Assembly (NCBI GenBank): GCA_026397255.1
Contig: JAPLVF010000013.1
Span: 85,030-149,029, forward strand
Source of the DNA: Candidatus Beckwithbacteria bacterium
GTDB taxonomy: Bacteria; Patescibacteriota; Microgenomatia; UBA1400; CG1-02-47-37
Direction: 5' to 3'
DNA: 64,000 nt
Numbering within the stretch: the first letter of the stretch is position 1; each line of letters starts with the position of its first letter. This document shows positions 1,784 through 56,024 of the stretch, one piece after another. Made by a program: the position numbers and the translations under genes. The notes below the pieces were generated by a model. The model was not told where the DNA came from, searched no databases, and saw only the letters and a program-made list of their open reading frames with translations.

Positions 1784-2620
1784 TTAAAGGATTAAGCCTG
1801 GCTGGATTCCCACCAGCAAGATTAATAGTATACCTAAAAATATCAAGTGAGCCAAGCTGGAACCGGAAAGCCGGATAATTTTCTTTTTGGTCACAATCGC
1901 CGAATCGATTAAAATTACGGCTATAAGAATAATCGTTAAGCTGATAGAAATCGCTTTAGTTAAGTGAAAAGAGCTGATTAAGGGACTCGTTTTGATCTCT
2001 GCCAGAACGGCTTCGGCGTTGGCATTGATTTCTCCGGTTTTAACCGGCAGTGCCGAACTGACCTGCGTACCGAATAATTGAACGATTAAAGTAGTCGGCT
2101 GACCCTGAAAAGTATCCTGGATGACGGCAATACCGATTTCCCGGTAACGGCCGGAGAGAAGATTATCCCGGTGTGTCGGCGAGTTCATCCAAGCGGTAAT
2201 AACCGACGGAGAATCCTGAAAATCCCTGGCTAAATTCTCGCCGGCATAAAGATATTGATAATGAACATTTTTAAAAAAATCCCAAGGAGTGGTTCCGTCC
2301 GGCGACGCATGCGCCCAATAATTTTTGGCAATCATGTCCGCTCCTTTTTCCTGGGCAGCTTCGGATAAAAGCGGGCTAATCGTTAAGACCGGCAGGCCAT
2401 TTTCCTCCCGGGTTTTATTAGTCAGATTGACAATTTCGTCGGCAGTAATCGAAGAATTAATCCCTAAAACACCGGGCATCCTTGCCCCTAAGAAACTAAA
2501 ACAAACCTGGGTAAAAATTACTAAGACCAGCAAAACACTGAGCGAAGAAGCGTGAAGGGTTTTAGCTTTGTAGTTATTGGATTCCTGGGGGGTGAATAAA
2601 TGGGACAGTAAATGAATCAT
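1784..2620 (-). CDS. CAP/SCP (PR-1-like) domain protein, membrane-anchored
   Basis: Central region YWAHASPDGTTPWDFF...YAGENLARDF...AWMNSPTHRDNLLSGRYREIGIAV resembles the CAP/SCP family. Hydrophobic N- and C-terminal segments are present. Confidence 0.6.
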   Translation of the reverse strand: MIHLLSHLFTPQESNNYKAKTLHASSLSVLLVLVIFTQVCFSFLGARMPGVLGINSSITADEIVNLTNKTREENGLPVLTISPLLSEAAQEKGADMIAKNYWAHASPDGTTPWDFFKNVHYQYLYAGENLARDFQDSPSVITAWMNSPTHRDNLLSGRYREIGIAVIQDTFQGQPTTLIVQLFGTQVSSALPVKTGEINANAEAVLAEIKTSPLISSFHLTKAISISLTIILIAVILIDSAIVTKKKIIRLSGSSLAHLIFLGILLILLVGIQPGLIL

Positions 2621-2675: not shown

Positions 2676-5600
2676 TTACTTAATCTTCCGACGGCGATAG
2701 TAACGGATTAAAAACCAAGCCGGAAATAATGTTAATAACCAGGGCCACCAACCGAAATAATGTTCACCCAACACAGTTCCTGGAGATTCTACGCCAGAAG
2801 CAGGAGGGGTAGCTTCTTCTTCAACTCCAAGAACTTCCGGCGCCGGTAAAAATCCGGTTGCCGGTCCGATGGCTCCCGGAATGCCAGCTATGGTGGTAGC
2901 TGTATTAACTTCATTGGAATATGTGCCACGATTACCAACAGTGTCGTAAGCCGCGACGACGACATAATAAAGACCGGTTCCTAAGCCTTGAATTGTGTAT
3001 GAGGTAACGTTACCTACGTGTGCAGCATAATCATAAACGCCTGTTGCCGTACCGTACCACACAGAATAGTCAGTGGCATCAGAAATTGCATTCCAAGCCA
3101 AGCTGACAGAACCAGTTCCTGTGCCAACCATAGATAATATAGGAGCGATTGGTCCGGTCAAATCAACAGTGGCGGTTGTTGAAGTATCTGCTGTGAAACC
3201 GGCTTGATCATAGGCAGTTACTTTTATTGTCCAATCACCTTCACTTAAATTATCGGTGATAGTATATTCAAAAGTTGCTTCAGATACATCTGCGCCTTTT
3301 TCATCTACGCCGTCTTTCTTCCAGGTGACTCGGTAATGATTGATGCCAACGTTATCTTGAGCTGCTTCCCATGTTACTTTAACGTTATTTCCGTTAGAGG
3401 GATTTGGTGATACAGAAAGGTTTTGTGGTCCTTTATCCAGCGTTGTTTCGTCCCATGAAATATTTTTAATACCAACTTCTGAATAATTGTCTGCCAAATC
3501 ATGTGCTCGGTAGTATAAAATGTGAGCGCCTTCGCTTCCTGGTTTAAATGGGGCTGAATACGTAGTCCAAGAACCAGTCTGGGAATCCCATTGATATTCA
3601 ATCTTGTCAATATTTGTATCTGTTGCCGTAAGAGTCACTTCCGGCTGAGTTTTATACCAGCCATTACTCCCATCAGCTGTTAGAGGGTTGATTGATAAAG
3701 CTACTTCCGGGATTGTTTTATCTAAGATAATAGTTAAAGTATAGGTATCTTCTATATTACCGGCATTATCAGTGGCATGAGATTTTATGGTGTAGGTACC
3801 TTGAGCAGGTGAAGTAAGGCCAGCATATTCCCAATTCCCTGTTGCATAAGATGTATTAAGTAGGATTTCTGTCCCGCTGACTACAAATGATGTGCCATCG
3901 AAGTATTGAGTCAAGTCTTTTTGAATTGAAATTTGTACACCGTTCACGTGACTAAGAGTGTCTGTGGCGGCTCCCTTAATAGATCCGTTCCAACTATTCG
4001 TGATTATTGTACTATCAGTTCCCGAGTTTAATGGGTCAGTAATCGTACTATCTGGGTCGGTAAAATCAATATCAGCTCCATTTGAAGTAACAGTGGTTGT
4101 ATTACAGTTTCCCGCGGCGTCACAGACATTAGGAGTAATTGAGCAGGTTTGATTTGTCCCCTGAGTGGTTATGTCACAGGTTGGATTATTACCTGAGGCT
4201 ACTCCATTTGTATCTGCGTAAGTAAAGGTGGATGTTCTGTTTGTGTTATACCATCCGGAAAACGTTGTTTTGGAAGCCAAAGCCGGAGCTGTGGCATCGT
4301 AATAGTAATGCACCGGAGTGCTCCAACCACTTTCGTTACCAGCGTTGTCGATAGCTTGTACCCAAATGGTTACACCATCTTGTTCGTTAAGGCCTGGTGT
4401 GTGGTTGCGTGAGGTTCCGGAAACTGTACGTATAATGGTATCTTGTCTGCCGGCGAGGTGGTGGTCATAAGTATATTTGATTTGATATTCTTTGATGCCA
4501 CTACCGCCGGTGTCGCTCGATACGGACCATTGATTTAGAATGGGAATTGTTTTGAAATATTGTTCAGCAGTTGGTGAGGTTATAGTTGGTTTTCCCGGCG
4601 CTGTTTTGTCAATATTAGTTATTGTTACTGTTTTAGTGGTAATATTTCCCGCAGTATCAGTGGCGACAAAATCAAATGAACCGTTTGTTGTAAATTGGTG
4701 AGATGTAGTATTTAATATTCCTTCATTTGTCGAAGCAGTCACAGTGATATTTTGATTAGTCCAACTCGTATTGTAAGGATCAACTGTTATAACCGGTGCG
4801 GTTGTATCATAGGTGATTGCACATAAAGATGTCCAAGTACCTTTATTACCAAGGGCATCATAAGCGCGAATTCTGGTCCAATATGTATTTCCATTGGTTG
4901 CCCCACCACCATTTACATAATTTGTAGACAAGGAGTGACTTACAAGCAACGTTGTTGAATTTGGTGAATAAACTTCCCTATCGTAACCGGCTACTCCAGC
5001 GTTTGCATCCGTAGAAGGACCCCAAAGGTTTGTCAGTGGTAAATAGTTCAAACTTTGTCCACATGTTTTGTAATTATTAAAGTCAGCGCCACTTGCATAA
5101 TCGCTGCCAACTGGCGGATTTTCGCTAGACCAACCAATTTGTCCTGGAGTTGTAGGACCAGTTTTATCGATACCCGCTATTGCGTCAGACATTAGATACG
5201 TTGTATTAGTGGCAGCATCAACTGCCCTGTAGCAAACTTTTTTGCCATTATCGGATTCAGAAGTAAATGTCTGACTGGCATAAGACACAAAGGTTAAAGT
5301 GCCGTCACAAACCGAACCAGTAGTATTACTCATTTCTAAAGTGCCTTCGGAAGTACTAGCCGTAATCGTTTTACTCAGCGCTGGATTTGTGTTGGGATTA
5401 TTAATGGTGATTGTTGGAGCGGTGGTATCCCAAACCAAATTAAACTCATCAAATGAAGAATTGCCGGCATTATCGGTAGCCGTCAATCTTAAAACATAAG
5501 TTCCATCAACAGTCGCAGAAACGGTTGTTGAGGTTAAACTGGCAGTACCAAAAGATATCGTTCCCGGACCTGATTCTTTTGTCCAGAGAACACTGGCAAT

Positions 5601-7556
5601 CCCGGAGATTAAATCGGTTGCCGAACCAATTTGGGTAAATAAGGCATTTTTGGATTGATCAGCACCGGCGTTAACTGAGGGGGCAGTTTTATCAATATTG
5701 GCACCATTAGAAGTCACCGGAGCGGTACTGCAATTGCCAGCGTTGTCACAAACATTTGGCGTGACCGAGCAAGTTTGATTGGCCCCTTCAGTGCTGATAG
5801 TGCAGGAAGCCGGATTACCGGAATTTATGCCGCTCCTTGAATCTGTGTAATTAAAATAAGATGTTTTACTTATCTTATACCAATCCCAACCAGAAAAGGT
5901 TGTTTTCGATGAAAAAACAGGGGCTGTTTTATCTAATTTAATAGTGACTGAATTAGAACTGTTACCACCTGTGCTAGTGGCCGAACAGGTAATGGTTTGA
6001 CCGGAGGTCTCAGTGTTTATGGTTTGTGTATTACAACCGGTTTGAGAAGTGATTGTGGACTCGGGATCAGTAACGCTCCATGTCACAGTTGGGTTAGAAT
6101 TATTCCAGCCGGCGGCATTTGGCGCTGGGCTGACATTGTAGGTAATTACTGGAGGAGTGGGATCGCTGTTAACAGTAAAAGTAGAGGTCCCCTTATCTGC
6201 CCAAGACCAACAAGTAAAAAGCCAAAAACTACAGTTTTGGACATTTGCGTACCAAGTTCCAAGAGCGGCGTTGCTTGGTAATGCATATGAACAAGTTACT
6301 TCTTTACTTCCCCCGCCGTTATCACAACTGGCGATAGAACTGTTGCTTGGATTTTTGATATTTAGACGCAAAAGTTCGGTCTTAGTGGAAGTTGCTTTAG
6401 CAAAAACTGTTTGTCCGCGCACGTATGAAGTTTTCGGAGTTGAGTAACTATTAGACGAATAGGTTGATACAGAATACACCGCATCTGTAAATGTTGTTTC
6501 AGCAACTATTTTATTCTCGTCTTTAACTTCAACTTTATAATTCGGCCGATAGTTGCCGTCGAGTTGGTAGGCATAAGTAAATTCGCCTAGATCGTTGGTG
6601 GTAATGGAAGTCTCGAAATTAACCGTTGGCTCATCGGTGGAAGAAATAATTAAAGCATAATCTTTATTGGGAGCAAAGGAGGTGCCGGAAATAATGACGA
6701 TTTCGGTCGGGGCATAATCGGGTTTATCGGTAGACAGTTGGGCGCTGGAAACATTGGCTGAGTCAAGATCAAAGACGGGAAGGCTAGTTTCAGAATTAAC
6801 AATCACGGCAGATAGTTGGCCGGTTTCTTCAGGTTGAGTGGAGCCTAAAACTTCCGGGCTAGGCTGAATGTCCTCCTTCGCTGAAGCTTCGGCGGACGAA
6901 GGCGGACCGGTTTCTTTAGGCGGATCAGATGGTTGAACGGACGGACTGGGAAGGGATAACGGGGCCGGACTGACTGATGGTGTTGGGCTGGGAGTAATCA
7001 CCGGCGACGGACTGACTAGCGGTTGATTAGGATTTTCCAGCCAACTATTTTCGTCTGCGGAAAGATTAAGTGATGTATCAGCGGCTTCGGATACTATTTC
7101 CAATTGCTGACTAGTAATAGTAAACCTAGTCACATTGACGACGGATGCGCCGTCAATCTGGGTTTTAAGAATACCGCGGACAACCTGGTGTTTAACGCAG
7201 TTGCCATTTTCAGAACACGTGCCGGCATAAATTTCTTTGGTAAAAGTTCCGCTGTCAACTTTATCTTGACCACTAACGGCTTCGGTTTTATCATCGACTG
7301 TCCGATAGGCTAAAAGATAGCTAACTTCTTTATCAGTATCGACGGTAAAAGAAAAAGAGTTTTTAGCTGAATCGAAAGTAATTGGAGTTGTTTTGACAAC
7401 GGTTGAAACCAAATCTTCTTCAGCATAAACAGGCTTTATTAAAACTGAAGCGATCGGCAATAATTGATTAGCCAATAAAGCCCAGGCCGAAATAACAGAA
7501 AGCAGTTTTCTGGAAAAACTTTTTTTCATTCGCCTTATTATACCCTTGCTTGTCAA
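2676..7556 (-). CDS. Giant secreted or cell-surface protein (1626 aa) with a signal peptide, a Pro/Ser-rich linker, repeated FN3/Ig-like modules and a C-terminal TM anchor with basic tail
   Basis: N-terminus MKKSFSRKLLSVISAWALLANQLLPIASVLIKPVYA is a signal peptide. A linker reads PSPVITPSPTPSVSPAPLSLPSPS. Two roughly 85-aa Cys-containing modules are duplicated internally (TAPVFSSKTTFSGWDW...CDNAGNCS and TAPALASKTTFSGWYN...CDAAGNCN). The protein is T/S/N-rich with likely beta-sandwich repeats. The C-terminus reads ...PAPEVLGVEEE...HYFGWWPWLLTLFPAWFLIRYYRRRKIK. Confidence 0.8.
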   Translation of the reverse strand: MTSKGIIRRMKKSFSRKLLSVISAWALLANQLLPIASVLIKPVYAEEDLVSTVVKTTPITFDSAKNSFSFTVDTDKEVSYLLAYRTVDDKTEAVSGQDKVDSGTFTKEIYAGTCSENGNCVKHQVVRGILKTQIDGASVVNVTRFTITSQQLEIVSEAADTSLNLSADENSWLENPNQPLVSPSPVITPSPTPSVSPAPLSLPSPSVQPSDPPKETGPPSSAEASAKEDIQPSPEVLGSTQPEETGQLSAVIVNSETSLPVFDLDSANVSSAQLSTDKPDYAPTEIVIISGTSFAPNKDYALIISSTDEPTVNFETSITTNDLGEFTYAYQLDGNYRPNYKVEVKDENKIVAETTFTDAVYSVSTYSSNSYSTPKTSYVRGQTVFAKATSTKTELLRLNIKNPSNSSIASCDNGGGSKEVTCSYALPSNAALGTWYANVQNCSFWLFTCWSWADKGTSTFTVNSDPTPPVITYNVSPAPNAAGWNNSNPTVTWSVTDPESTITSQTGCNTQTINTETSGQTITCSATSTGGNSSNSVTIKLDKTAPVFSSKTTFSGWDWYKISKTSYFNYTDSRSGINSGNPASCTISTEGANQTCSVTPNVCDNAGNCSTAPVTSNGANIDKTAPSVNAGADQSKNALFTQIGSATDLISGIASVLWTKESGPGTISFGTASLTSTTVSATVDGTYVLRLTATDNAGNSSFDEFNLVWDTTAPTITINNPNTNPALSKTITASTSEGTLEMSNTTGSVCDGTLTFVSYASQTFTSESDNGKKVCYRAVDAATNTTYLMSDAIAGIDKTGPTTPGQIGWSSENPPVGSDYASGADFNNYKTCGQSLNYLPLTNLWGPSTDANAGVAGYDREVYSPNSTTLLVSHSLSTNYVNGGGATNGNTYWTRIRAYDALGNKGTWTSLCAITYDTTAPVITVDPYNTSWTNQNITVTASTNEGILNTTSHQFTTNGSFDFVATDTAGNITTKTVTITNIDKTAPGKPTITSPTAEQYFKTIPILNQWSVSSDTGGSGIKEYQIKYTYDHHLAGRQDTIIRTVSGTSRNHTPGLNEQDGVTIWVQAIDNAGNESGWSTPVHYYYDATAPALASKTTFSGWYNTNRTSTFTYADTNGVASGNNPTCDITTQGTNQTCSITPNVCDAAGNCNTTTVTSNGADIDFTDPDSTITDPLNSGTDSTIITNSWNGSIKGAATDTLSHVNGVQISIQKDLTQYFDGTSFVVSGTEILLNTSYATGNWEYAGLTSPAQGTYTIKSHATDNAGNIEDTYTLTIILDKTIPEVALSINPLTADGSNGWYKTQPEVTLTATDTNIDKIEYQWDSQTGSWTTYSAPFKPGSEGAHILYYRAHDLADNYSEVGIKNISWDETTLDKGPQNLSVSPNPSNGNNVKVTWEAAQDNVGINHYRVTWKKDGVDEKGADVSEATFEYTITDNLSEGDWTIKVTAYDQAGFTADTSTTATVDLTGPIAPILSMVGTGTGSVSLAWNAISDATDYSVWYGTATGVYDYAAHVGNVTSYTIQGLGTGLYYVVVAAYDTVGNRGTYSNEVNTATTIAGIPGAIGPATGFLPAPEVLGVEEEATPPASGVESPGTVLGEHYFGWWPWLLTLFPAWFLIRYYRRRKIK

Positions 7557-30638: not shown

Positions 30639-30673
30639 TTAAAGTATATTAATTTTTCGGGGAGGTTCAACCT

Positions 30674-32711: not shown

Positions 32712-32720
32712 AATTAAGCC

Positions 32721-33887: not shown

Positions 33888-33910
33888 TTTTTTTTGATAC
33901 ACTATTCTTA

Positions 33911-34837
33911 ATGCCTGCCCGCATAAATAATATACGAACAAAAATTTTCATTAGCGCCCTCACCGGCGCTTTATTTTTAATTACTCCAAATAAAATATTG
34001 GGACAAATACGGATTAATGAATTTAGCTCAGACACTTCAAGTGATTGGGTTGAAATTTATAACGACTCTGATAATTCTGTGGATCTGAGCGAATACAGCT
34101 TAGTCGATGGTAGTACTTCAGGTAATCCAAAAAGTTTTAACTGCATTTTAGCAGCAAAAGGTTGGACAGTAACAGAATGGAGCAATAAATTAAATCATGA
34201 CGGCGATATTATTAAATTAAAGAGTGGTGAAAATGTAACTGATTGCGTTAGTTATGGTAACTGGACAGAACAATTTTGTTCAGAAGCAACTCAAGTTACT
34301 TTAGCTGAGATTAAAGGAAATGAGGTGGGAGCGCGAAATCCTGACGGCAACGGGACATGGATAGTAACGACAACAGTAACCAAAGATGGTCCTAATGGCG
34401 GTGGTCAAAAGGATTCGAATCTTGGTTGTTTTATGCCCAGCCCGTCACCAGCGCCGAGTCCGTCACCCTCATCTACTCCCTCACCAAGTCCTGAACCCAG
34501 CCCGAGTCGAAGTCCAAGTCCAACACCATTACCATCAAAATCCCCCAGCCCAAAACCCAGCCCCTCGAGTCCCTCGATTGCACTCGGGACAGGTTCGCTC
34601 GGGGTCGTTGATCCATCATTTGATCCTGAAGAAAATTTAATAGCTGAGTTGGCCACGCCTGAAGGCGAGGTTTTGGGGGAAACTGAGCCGGCGACGAAAG
34701 CCGGAAAAACCAAAAATCCTTATTTATTATCTTTTGGTCTAATCGGCTTGGGTTTAGCTTTGATGGCTACGACAGTGGTAGTTTTTACAAAAAGCAACCA
34801 TTATAATAAACCTCATGACACTCAAGGAAAGATTTAA
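33911..34837 (+). CDS. Lamin-tail-domain (LTD) surface protein with a Pro/Ser-rich stalk and a C-terminal TM anchor
   Basis: IRINEFSSDTSSDWVEIYNDSDNSVDLSEYSLVDGS is the LTD signature. The stalk reads PSPSPAPSPSPSS.... The C-terminus reads GEVLGETEPATKAGKTKNPYLLSFGLIGLGLALMATTVVVF. Confidence 0.65.
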   Translation: MPARINNIRTKIFISALTGALFLITPNKILGQIRINEFSSDTSSDWVEIYNDSDNSVDLSEYSLVDGSTSGNPKSFNCILAAKGWTVTEWSNKLNHDGDIIKLKSGENVTDCVSYGNWTEQFCSEATQVTLAEIKGNEVGARNPDGNGTWIVTTTVTKDGPNGGGQKDSNLGCFMPSPSPAPSPSPSSTPSPSPEPSPSRSPSPTPLPSKSPSPKPSPSSPSIALGTGSLGVVDPSFDPEENLIAELATPEGEVLGETEPATKAGKTKNPYLLSFGLIGLGLALMATTVVVFTKSNHYNKPHDTQGKI

Positions 34838-35186
34838 ATTGTGGCTGCCGGCAATGATTTGGATGGTAATAATTTTCTTCATATCCGGCCAACCGATTAA
34901 TAACCCGGGGGTAGCTTTCAGCTGGCTGGATTTTATTTTTAAAAAAACCGGCCATCTGACAGAATACGCTATTTTATACGGATTAATTTTCCGGGCAGTC
35001 TCACAAAAAGGAAAATTTACTTATAAAAAAATTTTTATGACTGCGTTTGTTTTAGGCTTGATTTATGCTTTAACTGATGAATGGCATCAGACTTTTGTGA
35101 CCGGCAGAGAAGGAACCTTAAGAGATGTAGGTTTTGATTCTTTGGGGATGTTGGCCGGATTAATAATCACCAGAAATTGGTTATGA
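34815..35186 (+). CDS. VanZ-like family membrane protein
   Basis: ...LTDEWHQTFVTGREGTLRDVGFDSLG matches the VanZ-like D-E-x-x-Q-x-F-x-x-G-R...D signature. It overlaps the LTD gene end by 23 nt. Confidence 0.6.
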   Translation: MTLKERFKLWLPAMIWMVIIFFISGQPINNPGVAFSWLDFIFKKTGHLTEYAILYGLIFRAVSQKGKFTYKKIFMTAFVLGLIYALTDEWHQTFVTGREGTLRDVGFDSLGMLAGLIITRNWL

Positions 35187-42807: not shown

Positions 42808-43374
42808 ATGCTAATTTTAGGATACATGAGAAGGTTGATAATTATTTTGGCTTTATTCCTGATTAGTGCGACCCCGGTATTGGGTCAAAAAGAAGCTTCC
42901 GAAACAGGCAAAAATCGCCTCTTAATACAGCAAGAAAACCAGGCATTTAAAGAAAAAGTAAAAACAATTAAAGATCAGAGGAAACAAAAAATTGCGGAGA
43001 GAATTAATCAGCAGCTGGCTCATATCAATGACCAGGCGACTAAAGCCATGACTAATGTATTAGACCGAATGACTCAACTGTTAGAAAAACTGTCCAGTCG
43101 AGTGGCCAAACTTAAAGAGCAAGGCAAAAATACAACCGCAGCCGAAGCAGCAATTGCTAAGACCCAAGATTCAATTACCGCCACTAAGGCGGCAGTGGAA
43201 GAGCAAGCTAAAAAAGTGTACGTAATTGAATTCACTGAAGAAAGCGGTTTAAAGGTTGGCGCATCCCAAGCAAAAACCAGCTTAAGGGTAGACTTAAAAG
43301 CTCTGCGAGAAAAAGTCCAAACCACCAGACAAATGTTGGTTGATGCCCTTAAAGCCGTAAAGAATAGTTTATGA
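42808..43374 (+). CDS. Hypothetical secreted coiled-coil protein (188 aa)
   Basis: Signal peptide MLILGYMRRLIIILALFLISATPVLG, then an Ala/Lys/Glu-rich helical sequence. Confidence 0.45.
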   Translation: MLILGYMRRLIIILALFLISATPVLGQKEASETGKNRLLIQQENQAFKEKVKTIKDQRKQKIAERINQQLAHINDQATKAMTNVLDRMTQLLEKLSSRVAKLKEQGKNTTAAEAAIAKTQDSITATKAAVEEQAKKVYVIEFTEESGLKVGASQAKTSLRVDLKALREKVQTTRQMLVDALKAVKNSL

Positions 43375-48281: not shown

Positions 48282-49391
48282 TTAATTATTCTTTTTTCGT
48301 CTTATGAAGAAAATGTAGCCTGCTGCAAGAAGCGTGATTCCTATTCCAAAAAAGATTATATTTTTGCGACTACGACTTCCTTGGGAAACTGGGGAAATTG
48401 TGGGCGCTGGAGAAGAAGTTGCTTCTTTACCCAGCACTTCTCCCGCGGCTGAAACTGTTTCACCAAGCACTCCTGGAGCAAAACCTTCCGGAACCTCATT
48501 TATTACTTGACCATAAACATCGGTTGATAGCTCATTGGAAAAATCGCCTGGCATACAATTATTACCGGCCCTAACTTTGAAAAAATATTTAATTCCTGAC
48601 GACAGTCCTTTTACTGTATAGGATGTTGTATTATTTCCACCAACATTTGGATTTCCATAAAGCATTTCTCCGGATTTAGTTCCAAATGCAATTAAGTAAT
48701 AAGTTACCGGGTCCTTTGCTTTCGACCAGATTAAGGTAACTTCATTTGATCCACCTTGAATTATGGAAACAAGAGAAGGAGCGCTTCCAGGTTTTTCATC
48801 AGAACATACAGAAGAAGTAGAAGTTGTTGTTGTTCCCACTACTTCCCCTCCGCTACTTGTGTTATTTTCAGTCGCAAAACTTTTTTCATCACCAACTACC
48901 TCTGGTGAACCATGTGAAATTACACGGTAATAATAGGTAGTTTCTGCGGTGAGCCCACTGATTGTCACAGAATGTGAAGTAACTTTTGGAGAATTATCTG
49001 CTTCTATTGTAGAGTTAGCATAGCCATAGTTTGGAGCAATATCCAATACAGCGTGAGAAACAGTATCGTAAATCACTCTACTGGTACTTTGATGGTCAGT
49101 AGTCCAAACTATTGTTATGCTCGTTTCACTTGGTGCGTTAGTGGTTTCCTGTGAGATTGTGGGAGGTGGATTAACAGTAATGCTAATAGTGGCCGTATTG
49201 CTGTCAATCGTCCCGTCATTAGCTTTAAAGGTAAAAGAGTCTGTACCAGTGTAGCTGGCGGTTGGAGTGTAATCCACCTGGCTATCAGTCAAATTGCTTA
49301 AAATGCCATGGGAAACTCCGGAAACAATTGAGATCCAAAAAATAATTGATAAATTATACCTTAAAAAAAGGTAAGCAATGGTAAAAATCAC
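48282..49391 (-). CDS. Secreted FN3-like surface protein (369 aa) with a C-terminal TM anchor and basic tail
   Basis: A signal peptide, beta-rich T/S-rich repeats (ETTYYYRV is FN3-like) and C-terminal ...GEVLGKEATSSPAPTISPVSQGSRSRKNIIFFGIGITLLAAGYIFFIRRKKNN. Confidence 0.65.
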   Translation of the reverse strand: MIFTIAYLFLRYNLSIIFWISIVSGVSHGILSNLTDSQVDYTPTASYTGTDSFTFKANDGTIDSNTATISITVNPPPTISQETTNAPSETSITIVWTTDHQSTSRVIYDTVSHAVLDIAPNYGYANSTIEADNSPKVTSHSVTISGLTAETTYYYRVISHGSPEVVGDEKSFATENNTSSGGEVVGTTTTSTSSVCSDEKPGSAPSLVSIIQGGSNEVTLIWSKAKDPVTYYLIAFGTKSGEMLYGNPNVGGNNTTSYTVKGLSSGIKYFFKVRAGNNCMPGDFSNELSTDVYGQVINEVPEGFAPGVLGETVSAAGEVLGKEATSSPAPTISPVSQGSRSRKNIIFFGIGITLLAAGYIFFIRRKKNN

Positions 49392-49522
49392 TGACCCCTT
49401 TATTGATAAAATGGCTCCCTCTATCCAAAAAAAGGCGAAAGAAATTTTAGTTTATTGTAAAAATGATATTGTCAGAATTAAAAGAGAAAGGCCTAGAAGA
49501 AAAAAGCCAATAAATATTAAAA

Positions 49523-49909
49523 ATGACCATTAAAAAAGAGTCAGCCGAAGAATTTATCAAAAGAAAAGGAAACCTTTTTAAAAAACATAACACTATTCAA
49601 GTTAAAGATATTGGTAGGACTGGGGTTCATTATTTTATCCGTGAAGCTTGGACGTTTTTAGCACAGAGTAATCTTAAGGAAAAAGTGTTTGTTATCGAAC
49701 GATTAAGAAAAGAGTCGACTATAGGCAAACTGGCTTATGATAACTGGAAAAAAGGAGACATTGAATACAGAATCGGTTACTACATCGTAGGTAGAGTTGG
49801 TCGCGCCAAAGGGAAGTGGATTTGGGGGCAGTTTTGTCCAATGATTCCTCAAAACGATTTAGGTAAATTATTGGACAAAGCTCGGAAAGAAAGAACAATT
49901 ATTTACTAA
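49523..49909 (+). CDS. Hypothetical basic protein (128 aa), first gene of the island operon
   Basis: ORF with intergenic gaps of 16, 5 and 21 nt to the next three genes. No motif recognised. Confidence 0.5.
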   Translation: MTIKKESAEEFIKRKGNLFKKHNTIQVKDIGRTGVHYFIREAWTFLAQSNLKEKVFVIERLRKESTIGKLAYDNWKKGDIEYRIGYYIVGRVGRAKGKWIWGQFCPMIPQNDLGKLLDKARKERTIIY

Positions 49910-49925
49910 TTTGAACTAGGATTAT

Positions 49926-50525
49926 ATGCCTTTATCTGACAAAGCTATTCAAGAATATAAGGATATTTTTAAGAAAAAGTATGGTAAGGATTTATCTGAT
50001 GCTGAAGCCAAAGAACAAGGAGAAAACCTATTAGGATTTTTTGAGCTTTTGTTTAAAATGGCCGAAAAGGAATATTTAAGGAAACAGAGACTTAAAAGAG
50101 AAAAAATTAAGGGATTTTTCCTTGATGCCGATGAAGGAGCTTATTCTTGCGGGATTTGTGGAGAAAATTACCCCGGAAATAATATTTGGTGGAACCCAAA
50201 AGGATTAAAATGCCGAGATTGTTGGAGAAATATTAAAAATAGAGTAATCCCCGATTTGAAATATAAACATGATCATAATGAAGTTTGGATTCAAGATTGG
50301 CAAATAAAATACGACTATGGCGTTCACCCATCAACAGCAAGAAAACTTAGTCGAGAAGGATTGCTTCATGGGAGAGATTTAAAAAGAGAAAACGGAATGA
50401 CTTACTGTACGATTTATTTGGTGAAAGAAAATAAAGGGTTTTTAAAGAAATATCCGAAGAAGCCGGCAATTAAAGTTAAATTTGTTAATCCCGAGATTAA
50501 TAAAACAATGCAACAAAAAACATAA
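49926..50525 (+). CDS. Hypothetical protein with a C4-type zinc ribbon (199 aa)
   Basis: SCGICGEN...(13 aa)...CRDCW gives two CxxC pairs after an N-terminal helical region. Confidence 0.5.
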   Translation: MPLSDKAIQEYKDIFKKKYGKDLSDAEAKEQGENLLGFFELLFKMAEKEYLRKQRLKREKIKGFFLDADEGAYSCGICGENYPGNNIWWNPKGLKCRDCWRNIKNRVIPDLKYKHDHNEVWIQDWQIKYDYGVHPSTARKLSREGLLHGRDLKRENGMTYCTIYLVKENKGFLKKYPKKPAIKVKFVNPEINKTMQQKT

Positions 50526-50530
50526 GTTCT

Positions 50531-51367
50531 ATGCATTTTAATAAACGCCAGGAAGAATTAATTTCAGAGTATAAAAAACTTTTACTTTTTGGTTATCAAA
50601 AAATAAGCACAATCGGTCTAAATATTAAAAAAACTAGAGTAAGGAAAAGAGTTCTATATTTCATGATGGGTGCGATGCAAAATTTTTCTGAAAGTATATT
50701 GAAATTATTAGGTTCAATACCAATTTATGAAAGACCTGGAGAATCTCTATTAAGATCTCAGTTTGAATTATTGCTAAACGTAAGGTTTATTTATTCGGGC
50801 AGAACAGAAGAAAATGCAAGATTATTTCTTTCGGATTTATTACTAGAATCTATTAGCTTTGCAAAAAAACATCATAGGCTATGGGACAAATATCCCAAAT
50901 GGGATCTAACTTTCGGATCAATAAAAAAACCGTGTGATTGGGACAAATTTATCTTGGGAAGTTTATATGATCTACAAAAATATAGAGAAAGGCACGGTGA
51001 TAATAATGTTAATAAGCTACCCAGCTTATACGATAGAACTTTACAAATAGATAAATATCTTAAAAAGATAGGTACATTCTCCGAAAACAACAGCGCTGAG
51101 AAATATTATATTTACTATTATCAATTTTTTTCTCAAGCAACTCATTTAAATATGTCAGGGTTGCAAAGATATTTGAGAAGTAAAAAAGATATTTTAAAGG
51201 AACCCTTTTTTGATATTGATTCAAAACCTGAAGATGCTGAAAGAATATTGGCAGTTAGCTATCAAGCCTATTTTGTAATGCTTCGTCATTTTTTACAGGT
51301 ATTTAATAGTTTTGATAGCCATGAATTAAAGTTTTTTAACAAATATTCAAAAAAAATAGCAAAATAA
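50531..51367 (+). CDS. Hypothetical all-alpha protein (278 aa)
   Basis: ORF in the operon. No motif recognised. Confidence 0.5.
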   Translation: MHFNKRQEELISEYKKLLLFGYQKISTIGLNIKKTRVRKRVLYFMMGAMQNFSESILKLLGSIPIYERPGESLLRSQFELLLNVRFIYSGRTEENARLFLSDLLLESISFAKKHHRLWDKYPKWDLTFGSIKKPCDWDKFILGSLYDLQKYRERHGDNNVNKLPSLYDRTLQIDKYLKKIGTFSENNSAEKYYIYYYQFFSQATHLNMSGLQRYLRSKKDILKEPFFDIDSKPEDAERILAVSYQAYFVMLRHFLQVFNSFDSHELKFFNKYSKKIAK

Positions 51368-51388
51368 AGAATTATCTTTAAAAAAATT

Positions 51389-52645
51389 ATGGGTCCAACG
51401 ATAATATTTGATAAATCGTTCCTTCAAAGTATAAGCGTTGATGAATCCGTATTTCTTCAACAGTTTTTTATAACCAACGTAACCCCACTTTTTTATGTAG
51501 AGACTCTAGGAGACCTTGATTTAGGAAAACACAAAAGCGGGAAACCAATCACAGAAATTATTAGTGCACTAGCAATAAAAGTACCATCAACTAGTGTTGC
51601 GCCAAATATTCATCATAGAAGATTAATTATGGGTAATTTAATAGGCATGGACGTTGAAATGGATGGCAGAATTATTCGTGAAGGTGGTATCGAGAAAGTT
51701 GATCCTGACGGAAACGTTGGTATTCACTACTCTGAATCTCAAGAGGAAATGGCCTTAAATAGATGGCATAAAAGAGAATATTTTGCTGTTGAAAAATTAT
51801 TTTCTAAATCATGGAGAAATATGTTATCAAATCTAACCTTTGATCACATATTAGGAATCATTAAAAATCTTCTACCTAATAATGAAAAGTTATCAAATTA
51901 TTCACAAGTAAAAAAATTCGTAGATAAATTTATCACAAAAACAAAGATCGAGCTTTTACTTTATCTCGTTATTGAATTTTCAGGGATTAACCAAAATTAT
52001 TATCATAAAGCATTACAAAGATGGCGTAGAGAATCTATTTCGGATTTTGAGAAATTTGCCCCTTATGCAGCATATGTTTTAAAAATCGACTTGTTTTTCT
52101 ACATTTGCATGTTTCTTGGCTTGGAGTCGAAAAATCGTCCAAGCCATAAAATCGATCTAGCCTATTTATATTATTTACCTTTTTGTAATGTTTTCGTATC
52201 AAGCGATAAACTACATAAAAGAATTGTTAATTTTTTTTTGAGAAAAGATCAAATTTTTGTAGATGGCCCAGACTTTAAAAGAGGCTTAAGTAAATTAAAT
52301 GAATACTACTTGCATTATTTAGATCAAATTAATAAAGAAGGATTTATGAGATTTGCCCCTCAGCCTCCAAAAGATTTAGACAATACCGTTTCTAAAATAT
52401 GGGACAAAATATTTCCTAATTGGAGAGGAACAAAGCTAGATAAAATAAAAGAGAGAAATCCGGAAGAAGAAAAAATATTATTAGAAAAGTTAAAAAGAAT
52501 TCAGAAAGAATCAATTGTAGTTGATAGAAAAACACCTATGGATGACATTCATCACATTATCGAAACACATAAAGTTCTGGTTCAAAAAGGAAAATGGAGA
52601 ATTCTTCCCGAGGGAATAGAAAATAAAAAGTCACAAAATAAATAA
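51389..52645 (+). CDS. Hypothetical protein (418 aa), possibly with PIN-like features at the N-terminus
   Basis: N-terminal TIIFDKSFLQS...YVETLGDL and later NVFVSSDK segments loosely resemble the PIN acidic-residue pattern. Very tentative. Confidence 0.45.
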   Translation: MGPTIIFDKSFLQSISVDESVFLQQFFITNVTPLFYVETLGDLDLGKHKSGKPITEIISALAIKVPSTSVAPNIHHRRLIMGNLIGMDVEMDGRIIREGGIEKVDPDGNVGIHYSESQEEMALNRWHKREYFAVEKLFSKSWRNMLSNLTFDHILGIIKNLLPNNEKLSNYSQVKKFVDKFITKTKIELLLYLVIEFSGINQNYYHKALQRWRRESISDFEKFAPYAAYVLKIDLFFYICMFLGLESKNRPSHKIDLAYLYYLPFCNVFVSSDKLHKRIVNFFLRKDQIFVDGPDFKRGLSKLNEYYLHYLDQINKEGFMRFAPQPPKDLDNTVSKIWDKIFPNWRGTKLDKIKERNPEEEKILLEKLKRIQKESIVVDRKTPMDDIHHIIETHKVLVQKGKWRILPEGIENKKSQNK

Positions 52646-52755
52646 TATATCAAACTATATCAGCAATATTAAAGACGTCCCTTTTTATACTGTCTCATTT
52701 GTCTCATTTAGTCTGGGGATGATACACTATGGGAGTTTAGTTATAGCGACTTAAT

Positions 52756-52781
52756 GGTCCCAGACCGGACCGCTCAACTAA
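52756..52781 (+). promoter_or_regulatory. Conserved hairpin motif copy 1: GGTCCCAGACCGGACCGCTCAACTAA
   Basis: Stem GGTCC/GGACC. The motif ends 32 nt before the ATG at 52814. Confidence 0.5.
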
Positions 52782-52813
52782 TACGAGCAAAATTAATAAA
52801 AAAACAAAATTAT

Positions 52814-53626
52814 ATGGGTAATACATTAATTACTTACAAACAAAAATTAAATCTTAATAATGGATTTGTTATTAATATTAATGAATTTAAACGTATTTAT
52901 AGGGCTGTAGAGGAAACAATCAAAAATACCTCGGAATACAAAAAAGATATCAGTATCTACTCAAGCATAGAAGGTGAAACAAGTGCCGGAGATATAAAAG
53001 GACAATCTTTTGAAGATTTTCTAAATGAAATTATAACTCGACAGCTTGAGCTACAGTCTGTCAGAATATATCTGAGTTATAGTACTTATTCAAAAGAAAA
53101 TCCCTATTCCTATACAATCGACATGTATTTAGGAAGAGCTTTTGGTAACCAGATAAATCTGAGTGGATCAGACGAAAAATGGGTTTTAGATTCAAAAGAC
53201 AAACTTGAATTCACTTTTAGCAAGGTATCTCTATACCCCAAAGCTAAAAAGCCATTACCAACTAGATTAGTTGACTTTATATTTAATGGTAAGTTGGTAG
53301 TTACGGCGTGGATAATGGTGATTTTCTCTCTTTTGTTTTCGAAATTTTTCCCAAACATTTATTATGCCTGGATAAGTTCGTTTATTATCGCATATGCGTT
53401 AATGGGTGTAGCTACATTGGCGCTTATTAACCAAGGAGACAAAACTCCAATCGCAAAATTCATGTTTGTAAATAAAGAAAAGCAGGCTACCAAAAAGTCA
53501 ATTGTTGATTATGCTGTGAAGCAGCCGAGAATAATTCAAATAATCCTTTTCATTTTTGCTTTGGTAGGTTTTATTTCTGCGATATTTACAATAATAGACA
53601 TTGCTAAAAGATATAACTGGATATAG
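52814..53626 (+). CDS. Hypothetical protein with an N-terminal soluble domain and two C-terminal TM helices (270 aa)
   Basis: The start is set at MGNTLITYK because the upstream in-frame extension is the conserved nucleotide motif. The C-terminus has hydrophobic helices VVTAWIMVIFSLLF... and IIQIILFIFALVGFISAIF. Confidence 0.5.
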   Translation: MGNTLITYKQKLNLNNGFVININEFKRIYRAVEETIKNTSEYKKDISIYSSIEGETSAGDIKGQSFEDFLNEIITRQLELQSVRIYLSYSTYSKENPYSYTIDMYLGRAFGNQINLSGSDEKWVLDSKDKLEFTFSKVSLYPKAKKPLPTRLVDFIFNGKLVVTAWIMVIFSLLFSKFFPNIYYAWISSFIIAYALMGVATLALINQGDKTPIAKFMFVNKEKQATKKSIVDYAVKQPRIIQIILFIFALVGFISAIFTIIDIAKRYNWI

Positions 53627-53653
53627 TTATTTAGTTATTTATAAGGATAGAAT

Positions 53654-53679
53654 GGTCCGAGATCGGGCCACTCAACTAA
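53654..53679 (+). promoter_or_regulatory. Conserved hairpin motif copy 2: GGTCCGAGATCGGGCCACTCAACTAA
   Basis: Extended stem GGTCCGA/TCGGGCC with one G-T position. It ends 2 nt before the ATG at 53682. Confidence 0.5.
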
Positions 53680-53681
53680 AT

Positions 53682-54362
53682 ATGAAATTAAAAGTGGGAT
53701 ACTACAATGAAGAATACAATCTAAAAGAATTCTATGAATTGAAGAAGAAGAATTTTTGGATTGTAATTGTTGTTTTATTATTAACCTTTTTAATAGTTAC
53801 TTTTAAACTACTCCCAAATAATTTTACGGCGGTTTTAATTTCCTTTGTTGCTGTCGGTGTAATATCTGATTTATTGATAAATATGATTGTGGGTAATATT
53901 TGGAGCCGTAAGTCTTTAAGAGATGTTGATGGCGTTCAAAAATATCTATCTCCATTAGAACAGGTGTCTTGGTTACCCAGAATAATTGGTATTTTTGAAC
54001 GAATAATCTTTACGGCTAGTTTTATTATGCAAAAACCTGAATTCATTGGTATTTGGTTAGGTTTGAAAGTTATTGGAAGCTGGAAAGACAATTCTCCTGA
54101 AAATCTGGAGAAAGAAAGAAAGAAAAAAGAAAAAGGGGAAAAAGTAATTAAACTCTGGCGCATAAGAGAGAATATTTTTCTTATAGGGACAGCTTTATCA
54201 CTTTTTTCGAGTTTTTTCGCATCCTACATATATTCACAAATAATTCATTTAACCAATTCTTTCGATAATAAATCTATCCATCTTCAGAAAAAAATTATGT
54301 ATTTACAACATAATTATTATCATTTTCCAGCGTACGATAATTTTTCAAAATCAGAAAAATAA
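53682..54362 (+). CDS. Hypothetical polytopic membrane protein (227 aa)
   Basis: The start is set at MKLKVGYY. About 4 TM helices and a KE-rich loop (EKERKKKEKGEK). Confidence 0.5.
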   Translation: MKLKVGYYNEEYNLKEFYELKKKNFWIVIVVLLLTFLIVTFKLLPNNFTAVLISFVAVGVISDLLINMIVGNIWSRKSLRDVDGVQKYLSPLEQVSWLPRIIGIFERIIFTASFIMQKPEFIGIWLGLKVIGSWKDNSPENLEKERKKKEKGEKVIKLWRIRENIFLIGTALSLFSSFFASYIYSQIIHLTNSFDNKSIHLQKKIMYLQHNYYHFPAYDNFSKSEK

Positions 54363-54428
54363 ATTAGTCATAGACCAACTAGTTAAGTAAATTTGAGACA
54401 AATACGGAGATTGTCTTTAAATTTGAAT

Positions 54429-55025: not shown

Positions 55026-55043
55026 ACCGAACCGCTCAATAAA
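55018..55043 (+). promoter_or_regulatory. Conserved hairpin motif copy 3: GGTCCTAGACCGAACCGCTCAATAAA
   Basis: The most diverged copy. It contains the stop codon of the upstream gene and ends 39 nt before the ATG at 55083. Confidence 0.45.
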
Positions 55044-55082
55044 TAGGTACTTAATACACCTAAAATTTGATATTATAAAAAT

Positions 55083-55979: not shown

Positions 55980-56024
55980 TTTCGGAGGATAAAGTTTGCA
56001 AACTACACTTATAATGATATTAAG

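What the first reader, a model, noticed from the sequence alone, without database searches (positions are those of the whole stretch)
2676..2900. Shared C-terminal EVLGxE motif plus TM helix plus basic tail in three unrelated surface proteins: possible uncharacterised sorting or processing signal
Three secreted proteins carry the same short motif 19-27 residues upstream of a single C-terminal TM helix that ends in a basic cluster. The giant 1626-aa protein ends ...PAPEVLGVEEEATPP...WWPWLLTLFPAWFLIRYYRRRKIK. The FN3 protein at 48282-49391 ends ...GEVLGKEATSSPAPT...IIFFGIGITLLAAGYIFFIRRKKNN. The LTD protein at 33911-34837 ends ...GEVLGETEPATKAGK...LLSFGLIGLGLALMATTVVVFTKSNH. The giant protein has an additional SPEVLGSTQPEE copy near its N-terminal linker. 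None has LPXTG, PEP-CTERM, PGF-CTERM or a GlyGly-CTERM directly abutting the helix. A conserved motif at a fixed distance from a C-terminal anchor is the hallmark of sortase, exosortase or rhombosortase-type processing. This particular combination is not one I recognise.
Basis: seen in the sequence. Interest (0 to 1): 0.6.

Follow-up and report, generated by a model that had tools for sequence, protein, structure and literature searches.

The report
Conserved VLG motif before membrane anchors
The short EVLG motif is real: it is a strongly conserved, undescribed element in the stalk before the C-terminal anchor of nearly all surface proteins in one group of ultra-small (CPR) bacteria, sitting just before the sortase LPXTG motif where that motif is present; what it does is unknown.

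Summary
The window is from a Candidatus Beckwithbacteria (CPR/Microgenomates) genome. All three of its single-pass, C-terminally anchored proteins carry [P/G]-[E/Q]-[V/I]-L-G-x-[S/A/T]-[T/S] in a disordered stalk before the helix.

The same island recurs across relatives:
- 52 of 74 LTD homologues (shuffle mean 0.7).
- 46 of 58 anchored candidates in 80 CPR metagenome loci; most misses are false positives.
- 93 of 98 tails of giant CPR surface proteins (shuffle mean 6.6).
- 0 of 9 anchored candidates in loci labelled non-CPR.

It is not a classical tripartite sorting signal. Its distance to the helix varies from 4 to 63 residues. In 49 of 51 LPXTG-bearing CPR tails it sits upstream of a genuine sortase motif (VLGASTELPATG; spacer 4 residues in 45 of 50), next to sortase genes. 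Related copies occur after N-terminal helices and in interdomain linkers. The window's proteins carry the form without LPXTG, and the window has no sortase.

No Pfam or NCBIfam model covers it, and I found no literature. My best guess, at low confidence, is a site-specific processing or release site. Rivals are an extended sortase signal, a docking motif, or a glycosylation sequon.

The parts
2676..7556 (-). Giant surface protein gene (1626 aa): signal peptide, PS-rich linker, Ig/PKD/OmpL47/FN3 domains, then the stalk, TM helix and basic tail
2817..2840 (-). Pre-anchor motif copy 1 of the giant protein, PEVLGVEE (aa 1573-1580), preceded by GFLPA
   Evidence: homologous module GF[L/A]PGVLGEAT
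2760..2783 (-). Pre-anchor motif copy 2 of the giant protein, PGTVLGEH (aa 1592-1599), 3 residues before the helix
2706..2756 (-). C-terminal TM helix of the giant protein, FGWWPWLLTLFPAWFLI (aa 1601-1617)
2679..2705 (-). Basic cytoplasmic tail of the giant protein, RYYRRRKIK
6837..6860 (-). Linker copy SPEVLGST (aa 233-240) between the N-terminal domain and the TDKPDYAP domain. At this position 28 of 92 homologues carry G-[Q/E/D]-ILDG-[A/V]-ST instead
33911..34837 (+). LTD (lamin tail domain) surface protein gene, 308 aa
34661..34684 (+). Pre-anchor motif EGEVLGET (aa 251-258) in a stalk predicted to be disordered (pLDDT mostly below 50)
34724..34834 (+). TM helix (aa 272-292) and weakly basic tail (aa 293-308) of the LTD protein
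33992..34006 (+). KILG|Q at the end of the LTD protein's N-terminal signal peptide; homologues have V/I-F/L-A|Q at this position
48282..49391 (-). FN3 surface protein gene (369 aa). Its C-terminal half is 55% identical to the sortase-less cassette proteins found upstream of the CAP gene in other CPR genomes
48459..48476 (-). Pre-anchor motif copy 1 of the FN3 protein, PGVLGE (aa 306-311), preceded by GFA
48426..48446 (-). Pre-anchor motif copy 2 of the FN3 protein, AGEVLGK (aa 316-322)
48285..48359 (-). TM helix (aa 345-363) and basic tail RRKKNN of the FN3 protein
2459..2476 (-). PGVLGI after the N-terminal helix of the CAP/YkwD protein (gene 1784..2620). The segment P-x-[V/I]LG-[F/Y]-A-S-N-I-T is kept in 43 of 43 homologues
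1991..2011 (-). AVLAEIK before the C-terminal helices of the CAP protein; orthologues have VLA-E, ALA-QA or VLS-Q here
42871..42888 (+). TPVLG|Q at the end of the signal peptide of the exported coiled-coil protein 42808..43374

Best explanation
**Shown.** EVLG is the core of a lineage-wide short linear motif, [G/P]-[E/Q]-[V/I]-L-[G>A>S]-x-[S/A/T]-[T/S].
- It lies in the disordered stalk just outside the C-terminal anchor of surface proteins of Microgenomates (CPR).
- Its full context is a two-part signal: VLGxxT, one spacer residue, LPxTG, a TM helix and a basic tail. That form is found next to sortase genes.
- The window's three proteins carry a reduced form. LPxTG is absent, the protein stays tethered by its helix, and VLGxxT is still conserved.

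**Inferred.** The motif keeps its function without sortase cleavage. It also appears after N-terminal helices, in interdomain linkers and as tandem copies. The most likely reading is therefore a recognition and cleavage site for an extracytoplasmic, membrane-proximal protease.
- The site would be of signal-peptidase-I type: aliphatic at P3, a small residue at P1, and proline excluded around it.
- Cleavage would release or mature the ectodomain, leaving the anchor stub behind.
- This parallels the PPEP-1 sites placed upstream of the sortase motif in C. difficile adhesins.
- The enzyme is not identified.
For: **The motif is real and conserved.**
- 52 of 74 LTD homologues carry it before the C-terminal helix, against a shuffle mean of 0.74 and a maximum of 4.
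- 9 of 9 true anchored proteins in 7 CPR genome loci have it, against 0 of 9 candidates in the loci labelled non-CPR.
- 46 of 58 anchored candidates in 80 CPR metagenome loci have it.
- 93 of 98 giant-protein tails have it, against a shuffle mean of 6.6. Density is 16.6 per 1000 aa in the 70 residues before the helix and 0.94 per 1000 aa in the protein bodies.
- Reordered tripeptides of the same residues are rare in the same stretches.

**It does not depend on LPXTG.**
- 44 of 47 giant tails without LPXTG keep it, at 4-43 residues from the helix.
- The FN3 family has two kinds of tail: VLGVSTLGATG with a sortase gene, or VLGEATLSGELG with no sortase gene in the cassette.

**Features that fit a protease site.**
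- The last motif position is G 125, A 35, S 15, and the first is V 137, I 38.
- Proline falls from about 13% to 0.6-3% at the three positions after the motif.
- The stalk is predicted to be disordered.
- Tandem copies are common.
- The same core follows N-terminal helices where signal peptidase normally cuts: 43 of 43 CAP proteins and two window signal peptides.
- CAP orthologues swap VLA-E for ALA-QA before their C-terminal helices.
- A linker variant, G-[Q/E/D]-ILDG-[A/V]-ST, is present in 28 of 92 giant proteins against a shuffle mean of 0.45.

**Precedent.** PPEP-1 cleaves repeated sites upstream of the sortase motif of CD2831 (PMC6447587).
Against: - There is no direct evidence of cleavage.
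- G is strongly preferred over A at the presumed P1 position. The N-terminal signal peptides of the same protein family use A (56 A, 10 S, 3 G).
- A scoring matrix built from those N-terminal sites ranks the motif first in only 13 of 74 stalks.
- The invariant L and the conserved T three residues after the G are not typical signal peptidase I determinants.
- In LPXTG tails the motif is nearly obligatory (49 of 51), with a spacer of 4 residues in 45 of 50. That fits co-recognition with the sortase motif, and cleavage there would undo wall anchoring.
- No protease gene is consistently adjacent. SipW-type peptidases, an S8 and an M10 protease occur in some loci only.
Confidence: 0.38

Rival explanations
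1. VLGxxT is the upstream half of an extended recognition signal for the divergent CPR sortase or a partner protein. In tails without LPXTG it still recruits that machinery, for example to retain or position the protein, without transpeptidation.
For: - 49 of 51 LPXTG-type giant tails have VLG, and the spacer is exactly 4 residues in 45 of 50.
- V, L and G are as invariant as L, P, T and G in the 12-residue unit.
- Sortase genes lie beside such proteins: 22 sortases in the CPR loci searched.
- These sortases reach only the generic sortase model and none of the class-specific models (C, D, E, F, GN) that appear in the scan, so an unusual specificity is plausible.
Against: - The motif persists, conserved, in tails with no LPXTG and at variable distances from the helix.
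- It, or a close variant, also occurs after N-terminal helices and in N-terminal linkers.
- The window has no sortase gene; the rest of the genome was not seen.
- The 'fixed spacing' may simply be two motifs side by side, VLGxxT plus one residue plus LPxTG. Spacers of 3 and 5 residues also occur.
Confidence: 0.22
2. It is a non-catalytic docking motif. A short hydrophobic peg in an acidic, disordered stalk binds a wall, S-layer, pilus or partner-cell receptor and holds the ectodomain at a set position.
For: - It is an isolated V/I-L pair in a disordered, acidic, Ser/Thr-rich context.
- It appears at two places in the giant proteins, the N-terminal linker and the pre-anchor stalk.
- Tandem copies are common.
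- The linker variant E/Q-ILDG-A/V-ST resembles the fibronectin CS1 sequence EILDVPST, an LDV-type ligand of integrin metal-ion (MIDAS) sites. That resemblance is from memory and was not tested.
Against: - The distance from the membrane or wall attachment point ranges from about 6 to about 60 residues, which is hard to reconcile with a fixed structural partner.
- The preference for small residues (G, A, S) at the last position and the exclusion of proline look more like an enzyme subsite pattern.
- No partner has been identified.
Confidence: 0.2
3. It is a sequon for O-glycosylation or another modification of the conserved Thr/Ser two to three residues after the Gly, protecting or marking the stalk.
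For: - T or S is present at position +3 in 85 of 175 contexts (T 62, S 23) and at +2 in 66 of 175.
- Short hydrophobic-plus-Ser/Thr sequons are known in other phyla, for example the Bacteroidota D-[S/T]-[A/I/L/V/M/T] motif (from memory).
Against: - A general sequon should be scattered over exported domains. Here the density is 18 times higher in the 70 residues before the anchor than in the protein bodies.
- Several window copies lack Ser or Thr at +2/+3: VLGVEEE, VLGEHYF, VLGKEA.
Confidence: 0.08
4. One reading: a new exosortase, rhombosortase or archaeosortase-like tripartite sorting signal read by a dedicated membrane enzyme, possibly VanZ.
For: - Motif, helix and basic tail occur together in all three window proteins.
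- No known C-terminal sorting-signal model matches.
- A VanZ gene lies next to the LTD gene.
Against: - The spacing to the helix varies from 4 to 63 residues.
- The motif co-occurs with genuine LPXTG.
- It also occurs after N-terminal helices and, as a variant, in internal linkers.
- VanZ is part of a conserved block, ftsEX-M23-LTD-VanZ, and is never next to the other VLG proteins.
Confidence: 0.06
5. It is a chance match in low-complexity linkers, or a decaying relic of a lost sortase signal with no function.
For: The linkers are compositionally biased, and the tails without LPXTG look derived from sortase-type tails.
Against: - Enrichment over shuffled sequence is roughly 14- to 70-fold across three independent data sets.
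- Reordered tripeptides are rare.
- Codons differ between copies.
- The motif is kept while the surrounding sequence and the LPXTG motif are lost.
Confidence: 0.01

Closest known systems
LPXTG cell-wall sorting signal and sortase (TIGR01167, PF04203)
   Same: - The three window tails have the hydrophobic helix and charged tail of this signal.
- In related CPR proteins the VLG motif sits upstream of a model-matching LPATG (spacer 4 residues in 45 of 50), beside sortase genes.
   Different: - The window's three proteins have no LPXTG pentapeptide, and the window has no sortase.
- The VLG element lies outside the TIGR01167 model, and I recall no such element in classical Gram-positive substrates (protein A, M protein, InlA; from memory).
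- VLG persists where LPXTG has been lost.
PPEP-1 (Zmp1) release sites upstream of the sortase motif in C. difficile CD2831 and CD3246
   Same: - A short, often repeated motif lies in a disordered stalk just N-terminal to the anchor.
- In C. difficile that motif lets a secreted protease release the adhesin (PMC6447587).
   Different: - The motif there is Pro-Pro based (NPP), not VLG.
- The protease is encoded next door and regulated by c-di-GMP. No cognate protease was found here, and cleavage is unproven.
Signal peptidase I cleavage region (-3/-1 rule)
   Same: - V or I at -3, and G, A or S at -1.
- A helix breaker (P or G) at -5 and a polar residue at -4.
- Proline is depleted just after the site.
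- The same VLG core ends some N-terminal signal peptides and follows the N-terminal helix of all 43 CAP proteins.
   Different: - The C-terminal copies have no preceding hydrophobic region and lie N-terminal to an N-out/C-in helix.
- G is preferred over A, L is invariant at -2 and T is conserved at +3.
- A matrix built from N-terminal sites does not single the motif out.
PEP-CTERM/exosortase, GlyGly-CTERM/rhombosortase and PGF-CTERM/archaeosortase
   Same: A short signature, then a helix, then a basic cluster at the C-terminus of many unrelated surface proteins of one lineage.
   Different: - In those systems the signature abuts the helix and is read by an intramembrane enzyme.
- Here the spacing is variable and long, and the motif is not confined to C-termini.

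Membership tests
LPXTG/sortase sorting signal (TIGR01167) | LPXTG-type pentapeptide within a few residues of the helix | tested here: not met
   There is no L-[P/A/G]-x-T-G in the three window tails. TIGR01167 aligns only from profile position 9 (helix and tail) in the FN3 tail. The feature is met in related CPR tails.
LPXTG/sortase sorting signal (TIGR01167) | Hydrophobic helix followed by a positively charged tail at the extreme C-terminus | tested here: met
   The LTD protein's tail is only weakly basic.
LPXTG/sortase sorting signal (TIGR01167) | Sortase encoded in the genome | tested here: inconclusive
   The 64 kb window has none (hmmsearch; tblastn E at least 0.35). The rest of the genome was not available. 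22 sortases were found in related CPR loci.
PEP-CTERM / GlyGly-CTERM / PGF-CTERM and other NCBIfam C-terminal sorting domains | Family signature directly abutting the helix, matching the curated model | tested here: not met
   The NCBIfam scan of the full proteins and of the isolated tails gave no hit above cut-off. The Heimdall-CTERM and LPxTATN models gave sub-threshold matches to the helix only.
Signal peptidase I substrate | Small residue at -1 and small or aliphatic residue at -3 | tested here: met
   G, A or S at the last position and V or I at the first in 175 of 175 contexts, by construction of the search. The informative result is the G:A:S ratio of 125:35:15, and the VLA-E to ALA-QA exchange in CAP orthologues.
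Signal peptidase I substrate | Cleavage region directly follows an N-in/C-out hydrophobic region | tested here: not met
   The C-terminal copies precede an N-out/C-in helix by 4-63 residues. The feature is met only for the N-terminal copies.
Signal peptidase I substrate | Actual cleavage at the site | not testable with these tools
   This needs proteomic mapping of protein termini.
PPEP-type release site | Repeated cleavage motif in the stalk upstream of the anchor | tested here: met
   Tandem or double copies in the giant and FN3 proteins of the window and in many homologues.
PPEP-type release site | Pro-Pro scissile motif and an adjacent M34 PPEP protease gene | tested here: not met
   The motif is VLG and proline is depleted around it. 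Neighbouring proteases are M10, S8 or SipW-type and appear in some loci only.

The most novel reading that the evidence does not exclude
VLGxxT, together with its linker variant ILDGxST, is the recognition site of a so far unknown surface-processing system specific to CPR bacteria. Two versions are not excluded.

- **A lineage-wide sheddase.** It would govern release of essentially the whole anchored surface proteome of these episymbiotic bacteria.
- **Cleavage coupled to sortase.** Cleavage at the N-terminal-linker copy would expose an N-terminal Gly-Ala-Ser-Thr. The unclassified CPR sortase would then join that end to the LPAT of another subunit, building head-to-tail covalent fibres without a pilin-motif lysine.
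Probability: 0.12. Interest if true: 0.85.

Novelty: new variant of a known kind. Interest (0 to 1): 0.62.

Why it matters
CPR bacteria are a large, uncultivated part of bacterial diversity. They live attached to other cells, so their surface proteins are central to how they live.

- **Annotation.** A motif that marks almost every C-terminally anchored surface protein of Microgenomates gives a simple handle on the anchored surface proteome. It flanks the LPXTG motif of sortase substrates and survives where that motif has been lost.
- **Evolution.** It shows that sortase-type signals in this lineage have two parts, and that they have repeatedly turned into plain membrane anchors.
- **Biochemistry.** It points to an unidentified enzyme or receptor that reads the motif.

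If the motif is a release site, it would be a general switch for shedding adhesins.

Tried and rejected
- **Tail-profile searches.** The word-indexed protein database was searched with tail profiles A3 and A5. Only 8 and 10 short hits passed E of 10 or less, which says nothing about taxonomic breadth.
- **Locus search with the 35-sequence LTD alignment.** The narrower alignment A2 worked but returned mostly Bacteroidota LTD proteins, which I used as a negative control.
- **Signal-peptide mimicry.** A matrix built from N-terminal signal-peptide sites picked the motif as top scorer in only 13 of 74 stalks. Plain mimicry of the housekeeping signal-peptidase site is therefore not enough.
- **VanZ as the processing enzyme.** Rejected. 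Its position next to the LTD gene belongs to a conserved block, ftsEX-M23-LTD-VanZ.
- **DNA-level repeat or recent duplication.** Rejected.
- **Motif docking onto the LTD domain.** Rejected. AlphaFold2 places it in a segment with pLDDT mostly below 50.
- **SipW-type peptidase as the enzyme.** It occurs in loci of both cassette types and has its own AxFxD-type substrates next door. There is no specific link, and the window has none.
- **tblastn of a composite tail against plasmids.** No match.
- **Literature.** Searches for CPR/Patescibacteria with sortase and sorting-signal terms, for lamin tail domain with Patescibacteria, and for 'VLG motif' found nothing relevant.
- **VLG in Clostridia.** I recall a similar VLG element upstream of sortase motifs in some Clostridia. 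I could not test this, and it is not used as evidence.
Full report
**What the window is.** The LTD protein at 33911..34837 is identical to an NCBI protein annotated as Candidatus Beckwithbacteria (CPR, Microgenomates), from a 359 kb contig. GC content is 0.40.

**Check of the observation.**
- From the E of EVLG to the first residue of the helix, the distances are 27 residues (giant), 19 (LTD) and 27 (FN3).
  - PGTVLGEH, three residues before the giant protein's helix.
  - PGVLGE, ten residues upstream of AGEVLGK in the FN3 protein.
  - PGVLGI after the N-terminal helix of the CAP/YkwD protein at 1784..2620, and AVLAE before its C-terminal helices.
  - VLG or ILG as the last residues of two N-terminal signal peptides.
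- In the window's 20,309 residues, [PG]xVLG occurs 7 times against 0.87 expected, always in exported proteins. EVLG occurs 4 times against 0.48 expected.
- Codons differ between copies and the tails share no DNA similarity, so the conservation is at the protein level.
- NCBIfam and Pfam recognise the folded domains: LTD, FN3, OmpL47 barrels, PKD and CAP. For the tails they find only the helix-plus-tail part of the LPXTG-anchor model. No C-terminal sorting-signal model matches.

**Conservation in homologues.**
- 81 LTD homologues share only 23-56% identity with the query. In them the PS/PT-rich stalk is not alignable, yet a [V/I]LG island survives.
- 52 of the 74 proteins with a C-terminal helix have it within 90 residues of the helix. 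Shuffled stalks give a mean of 0.74 and a maximum of 4 in 1000 trials.
- Variants at the same place are VLA and VLS. Reordered tripeptides such as L[V/I]G or G[V/I]L occur 0-2 times.
- The gap between the G and the helix is 6-63 residues, median about 23.
- AlphaFold2, run with these homologues as the alignment, folds the LTD domain and the helix with confidence. It leaves residues 220-263, including the motif, mostly below pLDDT 50. The motif is therefore a short linear motif in a disordered stalk, not a strand of a domain.

**Unrelated families and controls.**
- A genome scan with the LTD alignment returned 7 loci labelled CPR and 73 loci with non-CPR labels, mostly Bacteroidota. One of the latter, L006, is probably a misbinned CPR contig.
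- All 9 genuine C-terminally anchored proteins in the CPR loci have [V/I]LG before the helix, including proteins of 1438 and 1460 aa with no LTD domain. None of the 9 anchored candidates in the other loci does.
- A metagenome scan seeded with the CAP protein gave 80 more Microgenomates-like loci, 675 kb in total.
  - 46 of 58 non-redundant anchored candidates carry the motif. Most of the others are false positives such as TsaB, GtrA-like proteins and glycosyltransferases.
  - [V/I]LG is found 82 times within 70 residues before a helix, against 7-31 for control tripeptides.
- A full-library search with residues 1-330 of the giant protein returned 150 representatives of giant surface proteins. 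Those with a source name are from Gottesmanbacteria.
  - Of the 98 with a C-terminal helix, 93 have the motif. Shuffles give a mean of 6.6 and a maximum of 16.
  - Density is 16.6 per 1000 aa in the last 70 stalk residues and 0.94 per 1000 aa in the protein bodies.

**Anatomy of the motif.** Over 175 non-identical contexts:

| Position | Residues |
|---|---|
| two before V/I | G 66, E 29, P 24 |
| one before V/I | E 40, Q 31 |
| first core position | V 137, I 38 |
| second core position | L, invariant |
| third core position | G 125, A 35, S 15 |
| +1 | E, A, V or T |
| +2 | S, A, T or E |
| +3 | T 62, S 23 |

Proline makes up about 13% of the surrounding positions. It drops to 5, 1 and 2 of 175 at +1, +2 and +3.

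**Relation to sortase.**
- In locus L007, a sortase (PF04203, TLQTC) precedes a 1438 aa protein that ends PQVLGAATELPATGN, then a helix, then a basic tail.
- In the giant-protein set, 51 tails have an LPXTG-like motif and 49 of them have VLG just upstream. The spacer is 4 residues in 45 of 50, giving the unit [E/Q]VLG-A-S-T-E-LPATG.
- TIGR01167 aligns these tails from the L of LPATG onward, so VLG lies outside the known model.
- 22 sortases occur in the CPR loci. They typically form a cassette of three genes: an FN3 protein ending VLG[A/V]STL[A/G]xTG, then the sortase, then CAP.
- These sortases pass only the generic sortase model and none of the class models.
- An alternative cassette has a homologous FN3 protein ending GF[L/A]PGVLGEAT[L/P]SGEL, a stalk and a helix, directly upstream of CAP with no sortase gene (L095, L097, L101, L123, L125, L138).
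- The window's giant protein is placed like this alternative cassette, directly upstream of CAP. The FN3 protein's C-terminal half is 55% identical to these proteins through GFAPGVLGE.
- Aligned, VLGEATLSGELG matches VLGVSTLGATGS. The tails without LPXTG therefore look like sortase signals whose LPXTG part has decayed while VLGxxT was kept.
- 44 of the 47 giant tails without LPXTG retain the motif, 4-43 residues from the helix.
- The window has no sortase. I could not see the rest of the genome.

**The motif away from C-termini.**
- All 43 full-length CAP homologues keep P-x-[V/I]LG-[F/Y]-A-S-N-I-T a few residues after their N-terminal helix. This is the geometry of a signal-peptidase cleavage region.
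- Before their C-terminal helices, the same orthologues alternate between VLA-E, VLS-Q and ALA-QA.
- At the position of SPEVLGST in the giant protein's N-terminal linker, 28 of 92 homologues carry G-[Q/E/D]-ILDG-[A/V]-ST, against a shuffle mean of 0.45. This has the same flanks as the C-terminal motif, with one extra Asp.

**How it most likely works.**
- *Shown:* this is a conserved, lineage-wide motif on the outer side of the membrane. It does not depend on LPXTG, sits in disordered sequence and is often duplicated.
- *Inferred:* a soluble or membrane-tethered enzyme reads it. A fixed structural partner is hard to reconcile with distances of about 4-60 residues from the anchor.
- I favour a protease site (confidence about 0.38) for four reasons:
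  - The pattern of aliphatic P3, small P1 and excluded proline.
  - The identical core where signal peptidase normally acts.
  - The exchange of VLG, VLA and ALA between orthologues.
  - The precedent of PPEP-1, whose repeated sites lie upstream of the sortase motif of CD2831 and release the adhesin (PMC6447587).
- Against this reading:
  - G is preferred over A, the opposite of the N-terminal signal peptides of the same family (A 56, S 10, G 3).
  - A matrix built from those N-terminal sites does not single the motif out.
  - The invariant L and the conserved Thr are not signal peptidase I determinants.
  - The near-obligatory, 4-residue spacing to LPXTG fits an extended sortase signal (rival, 0.22).
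- A docking motif (0.20) and a glycosylation sequon (0.08) remain possible. A new exosortase-like tripartite signal (0.06) and chance (0.01) are disfavoured.

**VanZ.** The VanZ gene at 34815..35186 follows the LTD gene in the window and in L003, L004, L007, L016 and L034. It is part of a block running prfB, a small TM protein, ftsE, ftsX, an M23 peptidase, LTD, VanZ and galE. It is never next to the other VLG proteins, so it is not a candidate for a general processing enzyme.

**Novelty.** Pfam and NCBIfam (release 20.0) do not model the element, and four literature searches found nothing. I file it as a new variant of a known kind: a two-part, CPR-specific version of the Gram-positive C-terminal anchoring signal, whose upstream half has a function of its own. 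Whether the same element exists in other Gram-positive phyla is untested. My control loci were mostly Gram-negative.

Noticed in passing
window 49400-56000: A low-GC island (0.29-0.35 against about 0.40) holds eight hypothetical ORFs rich in K, N and I (49523..55979). It lies directly beside the FN3 gene. That gene's N-terminus has no canonical signal peptide and only a partial Big_9/Cadherin_5 match, so the island may be foreign DNA whose insertion clipped the gene.
   Followed up: partly
window 29628-36115; L003, L004, L005, L007, L016, L034: A gene block is conserved across Microgenomates: prfB, a small TM protein, ftsE, ftsX, an M23 peptidase, the LTD surface protein, VanZ (absent in L005) and galE. 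This places the anchored LTD protein in a cell-division and wall-hydrolysis neighbourhood.
   Followed up: partly
window 1784-2620; 43 homologues in L083-L162: The CAP/YkwD family protein has an unusual conserved cytoplasmic N-terminal motif, LFxPxExNNY[K/R]A[K/R]xLH, ahead of its first helix, and two C-terminal helices. The gene sits next to the surface-protein and sortase cassette in most loci.
   Followed up: partly
L097 700-3255; L102 3020-5539; L125 3935-6691 (also L133 5724-6269 and L143 2656-3207 as stand-alone genes): An archaeal-type SipW signal peptidase (TIGR02228) is fused to an 840-920 aa ectodomain with an OmpL47 barrel and an LTD-like INEF/WVELYN segment, which I recognised by eye. 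An internal SipW-type AxFxD signal follows the peptidase domain, and TasA/camelysin-like genes lie next door. This may be a self-processing peptidase-substrate fusion.
   Followed up: partly
L016 12752-17134 compared with L007 14628-18944 and 18931-19827: Two surface-protein genes that are separate and overlapping in L007 form one continuous ORF in L016. The C-terminal helix of the first runs straight into the signal peptide of the second. The first has lost ELPAT from its sortase motif but has duplicated VLGAAT.
   Followed up: no
L006 12357-19403: This contig is labelled as a Gammaproteobacteria MAG, but it encodes a CPR-type FN3 giant protein with a GVLAETT stalk and a WW-rich helix tail. 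It is probably a misbinned CPR contig.
   Followed up: no
L007 13974-14570; L016 10894-11505; L126 3801-4373; L111 9383-9955: The CPR sortases pass only the generic sortase model (TIGR01076). They score far below the cut-offs of the class-specific models listed in the scan (C, D, E, F, GN), so they appear to form an unclassified sortase group.
   Followed up: partly
P0090-P0239, N-terminal linkers (for example P0190, P0183, P0214): The linker motif E/Q-ILDG-A/V-ST resembles the fibronectin CS1 integrin-binding sequence EILDVPST, which I recall from memory. This is most likely coincidence and was not tested.
   Followed up: no
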